From Octopus vulgaris (taxonomy: Eukaryota): a stretch of 64,000 nucleotides of DNA. Made by a program: the position numbers and the translations under genes. A model generated the notes under the pieces. That model was not told the DNA's origin and made no database searches. It saw nothing but the letters and a program-made list of their open reading frames with translations. Each line of letters begins with the position of its first letter. Position 1 is the stretch's first letter. Where the stretch lies: NCBI GenBank assembly GCA_951406725.2, contig OX597836.1:24180001-24244000 (forward strand), read 5' to 3'. Positions 5,442 to 62,350 of the stretch are shown piece by piece.

Positions 5442-6246
5442 GTCATACTTAACGAATATTATTAGCATGATTCGGTGCAAAACTACTACCAATATAAACT
5501 TTAATGACGTCATTTCAAAATGATTATTTGTAAGTGAATAAAGTGACTCAGAATACCTATTAGCATGTATATAGTGTGAACAATTTTAACATGTTGCTAC
5601 AGTTTTGTTTTTAAATCCTTTTCAGTTCATCTTCGCCATTTTGTTGTGAATATATTTCACTACATACACTGTCGTATATACCAACAGATATTCGACCATC
5701 TTTAAAAGATTAAAGAATATTCGTTGTGTTAAAATGGCCCATTATAAAGTAATTTTGTTTAGTTGTCCTTGCATATCTATTTCAACTGCCTGCCAAGCAG
5801 ATTAACCAGTAATACAGTGGATCAGCTGTCACGGAATCCATGAGCGTGGTAGTAAACGAGGTCCTCGGGTGGAAAGATTTAATGATTTCAAAATAGAGTA
5901 AATTGAGGTTTTTGGTGAGGGGAGGTTTGACAGAAGAATAGAAATAGGGATGAGAAGACGTCCATTAACTCATCCCGTATGATCTCGGTTATTAGCCGGT
6001 TTATATTATTGTAGAATAGACATTTGAATCAACTTGGCATCATTATATTAGACCTATTGGTAACCCATACTTGATAAAAATTCTCAAAGATCCGTTTTGT
6101 AAATGTTTACTGTGAAAATGACTATAACACTTTTCATAATTCTAAATTTTTCCTATTTCAGTTCTATATTTAAGAGATAAGGAATTATGTACATTATTTA
6201 CATTATTTACATTTGAAGGATAATTGTCTTCATCTTGTTTGTTGTT

Positions 6247-6292
6247 AGCACGACGTTTCGGCTGATATACTCTCCAGCCTTCATCAGGTTTC
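6247..6292 (-). ncRNA. Minimal type I hammerhead ribozyme motif (stem I degenerate in this copy)
   Basis: CUGAUGA core, 5-bp stem II GGCUG/CAGCC, GAAA, palindromic ACGU stem III and GUC triplet. Confidence 0.75.
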
Positions 6293-6333
6293 TTGGGGAA
6301 ATTTCGAACCGGGATTCTCATTCTCATTTTTCG

Positions 6334-6480
6334 ATTATTATTATTATTATTATTATTATTATTATTATTATTATTATTATTATTATTATTATTATTATTA
6401 TTATTATTATTATTATTATTATTATTATTATTATTATTATTATTATTATTATTATTATCATCATCATCATCATTATTATT
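6334..6480. repeat. (ATT)n microsatellite
   Basis: Seen directly. Confidence 0.99.
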
Positions 6481-6741
6481 ATGCAGGCTGCAGCCTGAAA
6501 TCGAATTCGAAATCTTGGGCTAGTAGCCCGCGCTTTTAACCACTACGCCATATGCCCGTGGACATATGGCGTAGTGGATAAGATGAGGACAAATATCCTT
6601 CAAATGTAAATAGTGTAGATAATGTTATTCATATTTATTTCCTAATAAAGGGACTCACATACAAACGCGCGCGCACACACATACACATATATATATATAT
6701 ATATATATATATATATATATATATATATATATATATATACA

Positions 6742-7195
6742 CTATATACTATATATGTGGGAAATTATGGTCTGTCGCTGTCCTACATCGTTTATCGATT
6801 TTGATAAAACTTGACACGTGAGTAGAATCCATGTCTGGAAATCTCATAGCATACTCAGATTGTTTGAAAAAACTCAATAATAGGCCCCTGGAAGGGATCC
6901 TTTTATATATCTAATATATTTCATTTTAACAATCAAGGGAAATAACCCATTCACCCAGATTTTAACAGCCAAGGGAAATAACCCATTCATTTTCCTAAAT
7001 CATTTGGCATAAATCAAATTGAGTATGCTTATTTCTTAATATTTGAACTGTTAGAGTTATTTTCACAATTTATCCAGTACAACCCTTAAACAAGTAAATA
7101 GCATTCTCTTAAACAATTGATCCACTTATTTTGGTTAGTGACTTATTCACGAACATATCAACACTAGCGCCGCTGAGGGTAACATTTTCTGCTAA
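6742..7195 (+). mobile_element. Possible non-autonomous Helitron-like element
   Basis: The 5' region (TATATACTATATATG...TCTGTC) resembles the start of the 39519 element. It carries an internal CAAGGGAAATAACCCATTCA duplication and ends in a GC-rich stretch followed by CTGCTAAT (compare CTGCTAGT). Confidence 0.45.
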
Positions 7196-7649
7196 TGCAC
7201 AAAAGCCCTTTTCAGAGTTATTTACTTTGAATTGTTATTATCTCATATCTGATTAGTCTCTTACTACGAAAAATGCTACACGATTTCAGTATACATACCC
7301 TATTACATTTATCCTAAGTTCTATATACTCTGGGAACGCATTAAAACCCTTTTCGTGGCTACTTTATTTGGTAACTAATTTCATGTTATTACATTACTGA
7401 CTTCACAATTTGGATATTTATAAGTTATTGGGAATTCCTAAAAACTGTGTAAGACAATTCGATATTCTCTGTAAATGCACAAAAATCATTTTATGTGCAA
7501 CATACTTTGAGTGGCTATACATACATACATACATACATACATACATACACACACACACACACACACACATACATAAATACATACATACATACATACAGAC
7601 AGACAGACAGACAGACAGACAGACAGACGAAGACACAGACAGACAGATA

Positions 7650-58742: not shown

Positions 58743-59149
58743 TGTATATATATATATATATATATATATATATATATATATATATACATACATACATACA
58801 TACATATATGTATGTATGTTTATATATATATATTTATATATATACATACATACATACATATATATATATATATATATATATATATATATATATATATATA
58901 TGTATATGTATATGTATATGCGTGTGTGTTTGGGTGTGCGTGTATTGTTTGAATGTGTGTATTTATAAGCATTATATGCGTGTATTTCTGAACGATTATT
59001 ATTATGAATGTTTTTCCTTTCAATTTTGTTTCCATTTGTTGCAAAGTATCCTCCCGACACCAAGGATAAAGAAGCTCACTGTATATCTTGATGGATGGGG
59101 CATTAAAATAAACACACTGCACTGCATTGTTCAATTACAAAATAAAATA

Positions 59150-60690
59150 AAGTTATGGAGACAATATTATTTCCATTATCTTTTTAATGCGTGTGCCAAA
59201 GCAGCTAAAACAATCTTTTGCACTCTTGCAGGGACGGTCACCGAGGGATCATTCTCAAATGATTTTCAGTTTTTTTATCACTCTCTGTGCTTCCGCAATT
59301 ACTGGTATTTTAACCGCCTTGAGACGCTGTATTTTTTCAATTTCAATGAGCAAATCTATATTTTCTGGCCTTGTCAAATTCTTTTGCCGGGATATATGAT
59401 CACTATTATGTTTGCCTTTAAGAACACCATCCAGCTTATTAGCTTTGATGGTTTTCTATGTATATACAGGAAAGTCCCAAGGAACCGTTACATTCTCTCC
59501 CTCAGTTACTGTCTCAGCATGATGCTTATGGACACTTGTGGACAGTAATGATTTTATAATACCGACATATTAAGCATTATAGGTGTTGACCAACTCTACT
59601 GGTGTTAAAACTTTATATTTAGAGATTAGGTGGTTCACCATTTATTAGCTTTAATAGTTTTGTATGTATGTATGTACTCGAAAGTTCCAAAAGAATCGTT
59701 ACGTTTTCTCCCTCAGTTATAGCCTCAGGGTGATGCTTATATTATTTGTTTTGATTTTTTAATGTCGACATATTAACCAGTGTATATATTGGCCATCTCT
59801 GTTGTATCTTGATTTATCCTCTACTGATGCTAAAGCTTTACATCCTGAAACTAAGTGGTCCACTGTTTCAATTTTATCATTGCTAAATCAGCACTTTGGA
59901 TCTACTTCATTTTTATCATATTGGCTTGGTAGTGCCGAGTCAATAATCTTTGAACTTGATCAACTACCATGAAGCCTTTGATTTCTGCCTTTGACTCTAC
60001 TCTTCGTAGCCACTGATGAATGTGCTGTTTACTACGCTCCACATATTTGCCATGAAGAGGTTTCTGCTTCTATCAACCAGCAAATTGTTCATGCGCATTT
60101 TTCGTTGCCATCAATTTTACTTGCTTTGCAATGACAGTTGCCACAGTTCATTCTGGCTATTCAGCCTGGGTATCATTCATGAAATCAATAGCAAATATTT
60201 TACCCTCCTTCAAAACGGAACGAAACTTCTTACGCTTCTCTTGACTTGCAACGAGTTTTAGCATCCTGTCGTTAATTGTTTTAAGATATTTTGCCAGTCC
60301 AGTTGAAGAGCTTTTGTAAGAAAGTTCCAATTGGATCAAGCCTCGATCTCCTTAGGCCCTGGGAAGGTAAAGACGATCCACGTCTGCCTTTGGGTTGGGT
60401 ATTTTATTTCAAATCAACAGCTTATGGATTTTTCAACTAATTTTCTTTATTTTACTGATATTCCAGTTCAGCACATGGAAGCTAAAAATAACAACTGGAA
60501 CTGCTAAAGAATTTATGACTGACACCTTATTATGTGCATTTAGCTGCCCAAACTTTCCTATAACATTCCTTCCTGATCTACTCTTTCATGTATGCATGCT
60601 GAATGCCAGAGCCTTAATTTATTCTTAGGTATTTGGTAGGTCTGTTCCTGCTCAAGTTCTTTCATAGCGATTATTTCGTTGTTAATCTAG
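59150..60690 (-). mobile_element. R4/Dong-like LINE (RT C-terminus, zinc knuckle, RLE), decayed
   Basis: NKVSVINSLAVPVVIFSF, PKADVDRLYLPRA*GDRGLIQLE, HQWLRRVESKAEIKGF and TVDHLVSGC. The zinc-knuckle region occurs twice (~59470-59640 and ~59680-59870). Confidence 0.88.
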
Positions 60691-61100
60691 TTTATTATGG
60701 CAGTATTTTGAGGGTTATGAATATTTTGTATTTGTGGAAGGACTTAGTGCAATTTTTCTCTAATGGTAGCCTACTGCGTAGAATAAAAGAATGGATAGAA
60801 TCGATTGATTAGAGAGGGATAGCAAGGTCAATAACATAGGGAGTCGAGATCAAAATGTAAAAGGAGGTAATTGAAATATTACATGATATTTTCCCCATTG
60901 ATCATTTTCTACAAGGACGAAATGAGCAAACATTAGAAGGGTACACTAGAGAAAGATTGGCATTGATACAGAATCAAGTATGAAAAAACAAGTATCAAAG
61001 GCAACGGTATAAAGAAAAGAATGTGAACCTTCTCAGTAGGGTGACCTCTCCCCACTGTGTTCTCCGCCCGCCAGGTGCATGCTCAGAATACAGCCACTTA

Positions 61101-61192
61101 GTCCTCCGCCAAAATATGTAATTTTGTGCTCTAAATGAAATAATAATTATTATTTCATTTAGAGCACAAAATTGCATATTTTGGCGGAGGGC
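61101..61192. repeat. 92-bp near-perfect loopless palindrome
   Basis: GTCCTCCGCCAAAATATG...AATAATAATTATTATT...CATATTTTGGCGGAGGGC. Confidence 0.95.
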
Positions 61193-62244
61193 AATTAGTT
61201 AAACCAACACAGCGACTGGTTATTTTAGTAATCACAGATAGATTTTAATACTCTTTTGATTGTTCCACTGGCGGCCCAAATAATTAATAACCCTATTAAG
61301 GATGATAATAATGATAATTTTTAAGAAAGGTAACATTGAAATCAACTGAATATTTAAGAATGCCGGAGAAAAAAAAAAGCTGCAATTCCCGAGAAATTAT
61401 TCGTGAAACAAAAAACAAAACTAAAAAAACAAACGATTATAAAAGAAGAAAACAACGACGATAATAATCTAATGTTCATGTAGCTGAAATGAAAACCGAG
61501 GAGCAATGAGAAAAGCATCTGAGAAGTAGAAAGCTGGCCTTGTTTTTCAAGTGTCGGCAATAATGGAGTTTCAATAGAGCTCTGAAACAAAATAGACACC
61601 AGAGGGAACCCTCTAATGACATGAACATAGCTATCAGATTTCTTAGTAGAATGTGCACCGTCCAATGATACTCGGTACATGACATCACTCTATTATCATT
61701 ATTATTAAACCCCCGCTGTTTTTCGTAATTTTTCTTTTCAATGTCCTCTATTTGTTACCCCTGTGGCAAATAAAGAAATCATAACCAGTAACACAATCAC
61801 CATCCTCCCCCAACTCCTCCTCCTCCTCATCATCATCATCATCATCATCGTTATCATCATCATCATCATCATCATGTTGATATTGTTATTGTTGTTGTTA
61901 TCGCCGCAGTTGTGATCGCTGTTCTGTAGCCATAGCAGTTGTTTTTAGATGTTACGTTTACAATGGTTTTAGCTCTTCTTGCTGGATGACATCGTGTCAC
62001 TCCTATCACGGATCGATGACATAGCTGTTTTTTCCAATACTTCACTACAAACTTCGATGATTCGTTTGTTATTAGGTTAGATATAAACAGTGTCGTTGTT
62101 ATTAAATAAATGCAAAACAACATAAAGAATATTTGTGGAACATTCCATACAAAGCTGTCACCAAGTGCCAAAATAACAGACCTGATACATATACTTGGTG
62201 GGGGTGGGGAGGAAATAAAGTCATAAATATTAACTGCCTCTAAA

Positions 62245-62350
62245 AAGTTTAACTGACAATCTCGAAAATGTGTATATATATATATATATATATATATATA
62301 TATATATATATATATATATATTTACATTTTCGAGATTGTCAGTTAAACTT
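62245..62350. repeat. 27-bp perfect inverted repeat enclosing (TA)n
   Basis: AAGTTTAACTGACAATCTCGAAAATGT-(TA)n-ACATTTTCGAGATTGTCAGTTAAACTT. Confidence 0.95.

What the first reader, a model, noticed from the sequence alone, without database searches (positions are those of the whole stretch)
6185..62350. About ten unrelated fold-back palindromes, mostly at (TA)n tracts
Seen: inverted duplications at 6185-6237/6580-6626, 11207-11255/11801-11841, 11473-11783, 15193-15286, 17409-17571, 30545-30741, 32296-32407, 58496-58742, 61101-61192 and 62245-62350. Their sequences are unrelated, most abut (TA)n, one arm is often longer, and several overlap hammerheads. Inference: a single mechanism, most simply PLE integration into (TA)n with a strand switch or fold-back. 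This would continually seed long hairpins (ADAR or Dicer substrates) into introns.
Basis: partly seen in the sequence, partly recalled or inferred. Interest (0 to 1): 0.7.

Follow-up and report, generated by a model that had tools for sequence, protein, structure and literature searches.

The report
Octopus palindromes: mostly Penelope retroelement stumps
The ten mirror-image DNA repeats are real; most are truncated ends of Penelope-like jumping genes inserted in a known pattern, whose one-sided overhang seems to be set by a pair of small RNA hairpins, while a few look like local copying errors instead.

Summary
All ten inverted repeats are real (arm identity 90-100%; 15 local inverted pairs vs 0.08 per shuffle). 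Seven of ten have (TA)5+ within 12 bp of an outer end (p about 7e-6). They are not one mechanism.

Class 1 (A, C, D, E, F, G, H) has the published anatomy of Penelope-like element (PLE) insertions: a truncated 3' end, an inverted copy and a one-sided tail. Models built from 76 non-window Hydra-clade PLE loci place C, F and G in that (TA)n-targeting clade, D less firmly. E, H and A are unassigned. Class 2 (B, J with TA inside the loop; I without TA) looks like local template-switch fold-back; I is near single-copy and shared with relatives.

New detail: Hydra-clade elements carry two tandem bulged hairpins 54-83 nt apart, and 13 of 14 element ends lie within -4..+6 nt of one. This would explain the roughly 70-nt tails of F and G (published: 30-40).

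Introns, editing and small RNAs were not shown. In this window microsatellites dominate near-perfect dsRNA potential.

The parts
6191..6557 (-). A, main copy: tRNA-like head (by eye), (AAT)n 6334-6482, hammerhead-like core 6255-6287, 3' end
   Evidence: ARAGORN finds no tRNA; not hit by the Hydra-type hammerhead model
6560..6625 (+). A, inverted arm: about 22 nt of the head joined (2-nt overlap) to the last 46 nt of the 3' end
11207..11262 (.). B, left arm (core 11230-11262), the flank of a TA/TATG tract
11803..11845 (.). B, right arm: inverted copy lacking 15 nt, followed by more TA/TATG microsatellite
11378..11476 (-). C, one-sided extension (95-99 nt) up to the TATG/TA tract
   Evidence: tail-hairpin score not significant
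11477..11779 (.). C palindrome, Hydra-type hammerhead in both arms (11661-11750 +, 11503-11596 -); right end abuts (TA)8
   Evidence: E 4e-7 and 6.5e-5
15193..15286 (.). D palindrome, centred on a hammerhead stem III-like palindrome (15235-15245); left end at (TA)n
15287..15395 (+). D, one-sided extension with a degenerate Hydra-type hairpin (3' motif at about 15315); possible second hairpin at about 15364 (by eye); far end not defined
   Evidence: 0.4% of random windows score as high; ORF start not supported
17370..17400 (-). E, 31-nt tail between the arm and (TA)16
17401..17579 (.). E palindrome; right end abuts (TA)n; no hammerhead; family unassigned
30546..30741 (.). F palindrome, 19-nt loop, Hydra-type hammerhead 30644-30710 (+); left end abuts (TA)26
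   Evidence: E 0.007
30742..30811 (+). F, 70-nt tail with the Hydra-type bulged hairpin
   Evidence: best hit in the window, E 0.004
32227..32295 (-). G, 69-nt tail with the Hydra-type bulged hairpin
   Evidence: second-best hit, E 0.014
32296..32407 (.). G palindrome, 36-nt loop, Hydra-type hammerhead 32311-32366 (-); right end abuts (TA)6
   Evidence: E 3e-4
58411..58497 (-). H, about 87-nt one-sided extension up to (TA)5
58498..58738 (.). H palindrome, AT-rich, centred on a 12-bp palindrome; right end at (TA)21; no hammerhead; family unassigned
61103..61190 (.). I: 44-bp near-perfect hairpin without TA, tail or hammerhead; near single-copy; both arms also in runs of organisms B and C
62245..62350 (.). 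J: identical 27-bp arms around (TA)24, with a short TA run after the right arm
50150..51227 (+). Frameshifted, 5'-truncated Hydra-type PLE coding remnant (RT end to GIY-YIG) between (TA)n tracts; not palindromic; shows that the clade was active here

Best explanation
Two processes. (1) A, C, D, E, F, G and H are stump-sized, 5'-truncated insertions made by Penelope-like retroelements, at least C, F, G and probably D by the (TA)n-targeting Hydra clade. Shown: each has an outward-reading element end on both sides, and one side stops short while the other carries a tail (A's far end is not defined). In Hydra-clade relatives the two alternative ends lie immediately upstream of one or other of two tandem conserved RNA hairpins, so tail length is about the hairpin spacing. 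Inferred: the RT-endonuclease cuts both strands at (TA)n, docks on the hairpins, starts reverse transcription at two sites and primes both target strands (or one cDNA folds back). The short products join head to head, often at a native short palindrome such as hammerhead stem III (D), giving a ready-made hairpin. (2) B, J and I (and the unlisted K) most likely arose by replication template switching that copied the adjacent flank backwards, in B and J by folding back in the self-complementary (TA)n and returning to it. This is inferred from anatomy and from I's near single-copy depth.
For: Hammerhead model from 34 non-window loci: its four best window hits are C (twice), G and F, E 4e-7 to 7e-3, next E=1. 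Tail-hairpin model from 31 non-window loci: its two best hits are the tails of F and G; D's extension scores above 99.6% of random windows. 41 hairpin pairs in 40 of 76 loci, spacing 54-83 nt, median 62. 13 of 14 distinct same-family ends in 12 families lie -4..+6 nt from a hairpin start, 8 at hairpin 1 and 5 at hairpin 2. The inner three pairs of the hairpin covary (35 double changes, 0 of 500 shuffles). L028 and L015/L033 show an inverted copy ending before the hairpin and a direct copy running through it; in L028 the offset is about 71 nt. Hydra-type coding remnants at 50150-51227 and 8624-8746. Literature: inverted 5'-truncated copy, tail and (TA)n preference (PMC8557442); two RT start sites define the tail (PMC11167929). 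For class 2: I lies at depth 60-78 against 50-52 beside it and 1,100-65,000 in a true repeat (X1); positions 62191 and 62209 next to J are at single-copy depth.
Against: No whole genome was held, so copy number was not tested for A-H and no family was assigned to A, E or H; octopus Naiad 3' ends did not match D, E or H by eye. C's extension (95-99 nt) and H's (87 nt) exceed the 54-83 nt hairpin spacing, and neither scores for the hairpin. D's score is 1 of 17 ends tested (about 0.06 after correction), and D was not hit by either model. One same-family end does not fit (L057, -62). The unfiltered version gave only 10 of 22, and the acceptance window was widened from +4 to +6 after that. No empty-site allele was seen for I or J among the 15 joints shown (218 not shown), and the tool skipped 62260-62334, so class 2 is not proven. 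Twin priming and fold-back cannot be told apart here.
Confidence: 0.72

Rival explanations
1. One PLE-driven mechanism makes all ten: B, J and I are very old or very short PLE products, or PLE nicks at (TA)n prime fold-back copying of host flank.
For: B and J do lie in TA tracts, the Hydra target. A shows that a PLE-type unit can carry an internal microsatellite. J's arms were too short and partly skipped for a copy-number reading.
Against: I and K have no TA nearby. I is near single-copy. B, I and J have no hammerhead and no convincing tail hairpin (best is I left, 0.043 of 17 tests).
Confidence: 0.13
2. All are replication template-switch or cruciform-repair products at (TA)n, and PLE ends are involved only because PLEs already sit at (TA)n.
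For: Symmetric centres at short palindromes in C, D, E, H. Template switching makes perfect hairpins in one step (10.1101/2023.04.19.537475, part 1). Signs of centre homogenisation in I.
Against: In F and G the inverted arm stops where independent Hydra elements end, just before the hairpin, and TA lies outside both ends. A DNA-level copying error has no reason to respect an RNA-defined end. The same layout occurs around ORF-bearing elements in other animals (L028, L033).
Confidence: 0.08
3. Palindromic MITEs or fold-back DNA transposons inserted at TA.
For: TA-flanked inverted repeats; Tc1/mariner fragments are in the window; a palindromic Harbinger repeat is heavily edited in frog (PMC5625713).
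Against: The ends are asymmetric (one-sided tails), and C, F, G carry PLE hammerheads and F, G tail hairpins. I is near single-copy. E and H remain formally open.
Confidence: 0.05
4. Library or assembly fold-back artefacts.
For: G and J have identical arms; G was not checked in other runs.
Against: 30 substitutions and 7 indels between arms over 11 palindromes. Runs of two studies hold 0.90 and 0.89 of the words of 11378-14700, which includes C; one may be the source. Both arms of I are in runs X1, X4 and X6, and parts of both arms of J in X4.
Confidence: 0.02

Closest known systems
Hydra-clade EN+ Penelope-like elements (Craig et al. 2021, PMC8557442), including Hydra-1_Obim and Penelope-13_HM
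   Same: Canonical type I hammerhead near the 3' end with palindromic stem III; (TA)n insertion preference; 5'-truncated inverted copy attached (listed for Penelope-13_HM); one-sided tail.
   Different: The window copies are ORF-less stumps of 100-400 bp. Tails in C, F, G are 69-99 nt rather than the stated 30-40 bp. The tandem hairpin pair marking the two ends is not mentioned in the passages and supplement text I searched.
Penelope insertions with inverted pLTR and tail in Adineta vaga (PMC3846280); two RT start sites of anole Poseidon (PMC11167929)
   Same: Inverted pLTR, optional 31-bp tail (as in E), palindromes at pLTR 5' ends; tail equals the distance between two RT initiation sites.
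   Different: Different clade. Poseidon starts within one AC-rich stem loop, whereas here two copies of a bulged hairpin flank the tail. No TSD can be read inside (TA)n.
Template-switching mutations (Monttinen et al., 10.1101/2023.04.19.537475)
   Same: Single-step perfect hairpins of about 15-80 nt from local sequence; arm homogenisation. Fits I, J, B, K.
   Different: No ancestral allele without the arm was seen here. The TA-centred form of B and J is my inference.
Non-LTR retrozymes (10.64898/2026.07.22.740005, part 1)
   Same: Non-coding, hammerhead-bearing, PLE-related.
   Different: Retrozymes are head-to-tail tandem units; these are head-to-head single insertions.

Membership tests
Hydra-clade PLE (C, F, G, D) | Canonical type I hammerhead in the pLTR | tested here: met
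   C, F, G hit by a model built from non-window loci; D keeps only stem III and the cleavage triplet, not a model hit
Hydra-clade PLE (C, F, G, D) | Insertion into (TA)n | tested here: met
   TA or TA/TATG tracts on both sides of C, F, G; on one side of D
Hydra-clade PLE (C, F, G, D) | Adjacent inverted 5'-truncated copy and one-sided tail | tested here: met
   tails of 69-99 nt are longer than published but F and G match relatives; D's far end is undefined
Hydra-clade PLE (C, F, G, D) | ORF with RWK, DKT, CxCX5C and C-terminal GIY-YIG | tested here: inconclusive
   No ORF in the stumps, as expected after truncation; an ORF start behind D was not supported; separate Hydra-type remnants at 50150-51227 and 8624-8746
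Hydra-clade PLE (C, F, G, D) | Dispersed multi-copy family | not tested
EN+ PLE, any clade (A, E, H) | Inverted copy plus one-sided tail | tested here: met
   E 31 nt, H about 87 nt; A has the inverted arm, but its far end is not defined
EN+ PLE, any clade (A, E, H) | Hammerhead or sequence link to a PLE ORF or consensus | tested here: inconclusive
   A has a core motif that fails the strict script; E and H have none within their arms; no match by eye to two octopus Naiad 3' ends
EN+ PLE, any clade (B, I, J) | Hammerhead, tail or TA outside both ends | tested here: not met
EN+ PLE, any clade (I) | Dispersed multi-copy family | tested here: not met
   near single-copy contig depth in four runs (depth is only a rough guide)
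Template-switch mutation (B, I, J) | Arm is an inverted copy of adjacent single-copy DNA | tested here: inconclusive
   met for I and for J's flank; J's arms partly skipped; B not tested
Template-switch mutation (B, I, J) | Ancestral allele lacking one arm | tested here: inconclusive
   relatives B and C already carry I, and B carries J; no skipping joint among those shown
MITE / fold-back DNA transposon | Symmetric terminal inverted repeats with TSD, multi-copy | tested here: not met
   asymmetric ends with tails in C, E, F, G, H; I near single-copy
Non-LTR retrozyme | Head-to-tail tandem units, each with a hammerhead | tested here: not met
   no tandem copies of these units in the self-BLAST

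The most novel reading that the evidence does not exclude
Hydra-clade PLEs use two tandem RNA hairpins as docking sites that fix two reverse-transcription starts, one for each cut target strand, so insertions are routinely born as hairpins with a tail equal to the hairpin spacing. In octopus these stumps are the main non-microsatellite source of the near-perfect dsRNA excess and hyper-editing that Porath et al. 2017 reported without assigning a repeat source.
Probability: 0.25. Interest if true: 0.72.

Novelty: new variant of a known kind. Interest (0 to 1): 0.45.

Why it matters
How PLEs make their inverted copies and tails is stated to be an open question (PMC8557442, section 15). A conserved hairpin pair whose spacing predicts tail length gives a direct in vitro test. 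Octopus has exceptionally high hyper-editing and near-perfect dsRNA potential (4.4e-3), and was left out of the repeat-class analysis (PMC5625713, passages); lizard Penelope is reported there as massively edited. In this window PLE-type palindromes give 36 of the 47 non-microsatellite positive tiles by a similar metric, so they are a concrete candidate source. The core observation, palindromic PLE stumps in (TA)n, is known behaviour.

Tried and rejected
No whole genome held. Rfam: no hit at gathering score; the E-value scan was swamped by TA-rich miRNA models; nothing useful for A. ARAGORN: no tRNA. A word-indexed search for longer homologues of the 50308-51147 frame found none; the unindexed search found 461. 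An exact scan of metagenome contigs with a 25-mer from E gave 0 hits. Earlier-findings look-ups by place, by sequence and by a first word set were blank. No RNA holder was listed for 11378-14700 and no RNA run was laid, so expression is untested either way. X1, X6 and X9 had no or almost no cover right of 62262; a hole proves nothing. An ORF start downstream of D was not among the profile hits: rejected. Naiad_Obim and Naiad_Ovul 3' ends did not match D, E or H by eye. Minimum-energy folds of the isolated hammerheads of A, C and G were not better than shuffles (z -1.3, 0.4, 0.2; F -2.0). The first end-mapping script placed only 7 ends. The second, without a family filter, mixed in cross-family hammerhead matches (10 of 22). 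I report the ORF-defined same-family version, in which 1 duplicate of 15 rows was dropped. From the 37 references, 3 were left out of the hammerhead alignment and 6 out of the hairpin alignment (near-duplicates or misplaced hairpins).
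Full report
Setting. The window is AT-rich (about 33% GC) and full of microsatellites; 13,466 bases were masked as tandem repeat. No call names the organism. An octopus is inferred from my recall of the repeat landscape and, where the 3 named proteins among 8 close relatives of the window's PLE fragment are all from Octopus. Pfam on 140 of 156 stop-to-stop frames gave only transposon domains, so no host exon was identified. No whole genome was held.

Observation. All ten inverted repeats exist. Arms are 90-100% identical, with 30 substitutions and 7 indels summed over the ten plus K. 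The masked window holds 15 local inverted pairs against a mean of 0.08 in 60 shuffles. The five extra pairs are three inverted SINE-like pairs or low-complexity matches, the inner palindrome of A, and K (47182-47242). Seven of ten have (TA)5+ within 12 bp of an outer end (p 7.5e-6 with the conservative background; 7 of 11 with K). Artefact is unlikely. Two studies hold about 0.9 of the words of the stretch with C (one may be the source). In one search both arms of I lie in contigs of X1, X4 and X6. In X4 and X6 one contig carries two differences near the centre, 32 and 36 letters from its end, so I infer that it bridges the centre. Parts of both arms of J lie in X4.

Class 1 anatomy. Read outward from the centre, C, D, E, F, G and H end on one side directly in (TA)n and run on past the arm on the other side. 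The extension is 31 nt in E, 69 in G, 70 in F, about 87 in H and 95-99 in C before the next TA or TATG tract; D's far end is undefined. This is the published PLE layout: a 5'-truncated copy, an adjacent inverted truncated copy and a 30-40 bp tail at one end (PMC8557442, passages and sections 11 and 15; PMC3846280, parts 1-3 of 5). The tail corresponds to two RT start sites in vitro (PMC11167929, parts 1-2 of 4). The supplement of PMC8557442 (parts 1, 2, 52, 53 of 59 and three answered searches) lists Hydra-clade families, one from Octopus bimaculoides, with (TA)n preference and hammerheads laid out like those in C, F and G.

Independent test of clade. The frame at 50308-51147 has 461 relatives. 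[quoted passage not shown] A profile finds coding remnants at 50150-51227 and 8624-8746. An alignment of six relatives fetched 76 loci from metagenome contigs, with 77 hammerhead copies in 60 of them. A covariance model from 34 of these hammerheads hits the window best at C (both arms), G and F (E 4e-7, 6.5e-5, 3e-4, 7e-3), and the next hit is at E=1. So C, F and G are Hydra-type ends. D is centred on a sequence with the form of hammerhead stem III plus cleavage triplet, 41-45 nt before its arm end, the same distance as in relatives. That suggests the two halves joined at the ribozyme's own short palindrome (inference).

The hairpin pair (new detail). Downstream of the hammerhead the relatives carry a bulged hairpin (53 of 77 copies; 64 had 110 nt or more of downstream sequence). 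Its outer four pairs were fixed by my selection pattern, but the inner three covary: 35 double changes, 0 of 500 shuffles, and all slid controls lower (structure drawn from these same sequences). A model from 31 such hairpins hits the window best in the tails of F and G (E 0.004, 0.014), each with a compensatory change in the outermost pair. A position-anchored score supports D (0.4% of random windows), F (0.1%) and G (1.5%) but not C, E or H, out of 17 ends tested. The hairpin comes as a tandem pair: 41 pairs in 40 of 76 loci, 54-83 nt apart, median 62. Comparing copies within families defined by ORF identity, 13 of 14 distinct element ends in 12 families lie -4..+6 nt from the first base of hairpin 1 (8 ends) or hairpin 2 (5 ends); one lies at -62 (p 1e-9 to 4e-6 by the null range chosen). 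The unfiltered version gave 10 of 22, and the window was widened by 2 nt after it. In the window the short arms of C, D, F and G stop 6-10 nt before a hairpin-like start. L028 and L015/L033 show the same inverted-short plus direct-long layout around an ORF. The simplest reading is that each hairpin positions one RT start, so the tail equals the spacing. That step is inferred. C and H have longer extensions than this rule predicts. I did not find this in print or in the supplement search; subscription papers and Repbase reports were not searchable, and supplements of the bioRxiv preprints were closed.

A, E, H. A reads, on the minus strand, as a tRNA-like head (by eye; ARAGORN negative), (AAT)n, a hammerhead-like core and a 3' end. 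Its inverted arm is about 22 nt of the head joined to the last 46 nt of the 3' end. That fits a template jump or a later deletion in a once full-length arm. A is not at (TA)n and is not Hydra-type by the model. E has the canonical 31-nt tail and H a long one, but neither has a hammerhead in its arms or an assigned family. They are PLE-like by anatomy only.

Class 2. In B and J the TA tract is inside the loop and more TA-type microsatellite follows the right arm. This is what a nascent strand would leave if it folded back in (TA)n, copied the flank for 27-55 nt and returned. C later inserted inside B's loop (inference from nesting). I and K have no TA. In one search, I lies at depth 60-78 in X1 against 50-52 in neighbouring single-copy bins and 1,100-65,000 in the repeat at 58960-60737; the tool warns that depth is no copy number, but the contrast is one to three orders of magnitude. 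Positions beside J are at single-copy depth, though 62260-62334 was skipped. X4 and X6 differ from the window at two central positions of I where the window is perfectly paired, as expected from arm homogenisation (polarity unknown). Template switching is known to make such hairpins in one step (10.1101/2023.04.19.537475, part 1 of 4). No empty allele was seen, so class 2 is likely rather than shown.

Consequences. Transcription, editing and small RNAs were not tested. I, D, J and K fold as strong hairpins (z -9 to -18). An ungapped version of the Porath metric marks 214 of 6,395 tiles: 167 simple repeat, 36 in C, F and H, 9 in a SINE pair and 2 in I. PLE-type palindromes thus supply most of the non-microsatellite signal (0.56% of tiles, the order of the 0.44% reported for O. 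bimaculoides; PMC5625713, passages), but microsatellites dominate, and this is one window picked for its palindromes. A dedicated endo-siRNA pathway is reported absent in molluscs (PMC12479628, abstract and passages), so ADAR is the more plausible consumer. A recent O. vulgaris repeat annotation lists recently active Penelope-like families and has no occurrence of 'palindrom' or 'hairpin' in its main text (PMC13282606, part 1 of 3 and a term search). PMC9989829 (passages) added nothing specific. The retrozyme preprint (part 1 of 5) describes tandem units, a different layout. Earlier AI notes on shark windows reach the same PLE-stump reading; they are not independent support.

Verdict. About seven of ten are PLE-type stumps of a known pattern, three or four of them assignable to the Hydra clade; about three are probably local template-switch products. 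The worthwhile addition is the hairpin pair that appears to set the two element ends and the roughly 60-70 nt tail. New variant of a known kind; interest 0.45.

Noticed in passing
   Followed up: partly
window 1784-2022 / 2115-2353; 24286-24596; 24754-25071: Inverted pairs of dispersed SINE-like repeats; the first (239 bp, 91%) is the longest non-microsatellite stem in the window.
   Followed up: partly
window 17370-17400 (minus strand): E's 31-nt tail contains a 6-bp stem with a 3-nt loop followed by AC, loosely recalling the Hydra tail hairpin; it does not score with the Hydra profile.
   Followed up: partly
window 50150-51435 and 8624-8746: Hydra-type PLE coding remnants; the first is bounded by (TA)n on both sides, with no inverted arm or clear hammerhead. 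RefSeq relatives carry misleading names such as myb-like protein I.
   Followed up: partly
window 61141 and 61145: Runs X4 and X6 differ from the window, X1 and X9 at two central positions of palindrome I, which is perfectly paired only in the latter: possible arm homogenisation.
   Followed up: partly
window 58960-60640: High-copy repeat (contig depth 1,000-100,000), no Pfam match; not identified.
   Followed up: no
window 178-1064, 9980-10976, 47332-48279, 12717-12920, 53882-54157: Tc1/mariner fragments, a PIF1-like helicase fragment (possibly Helitron) and a LINE RT fragment.
   Followed up: no
L027 711-904: Inverted arm at the 5' side of a full Hydra ORF that ends at the long (hairpin 2) position and appears internally shortened, like arm A.
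   Followed up: no
L072 2507-2988; L060 2263-2428: A second hammerhead-bearing PLE end of a different family inserted in the (TA)n next to a Hydra element: nested targeting like C inside B.
   Followed up: no
window 22214-22266 (minus) and 876-899 (plus): Isolated weak hammerhead-core-like motifs outside any palindrome (model E 1.3 for the first); probably chance or decayed.
   Followed up: no
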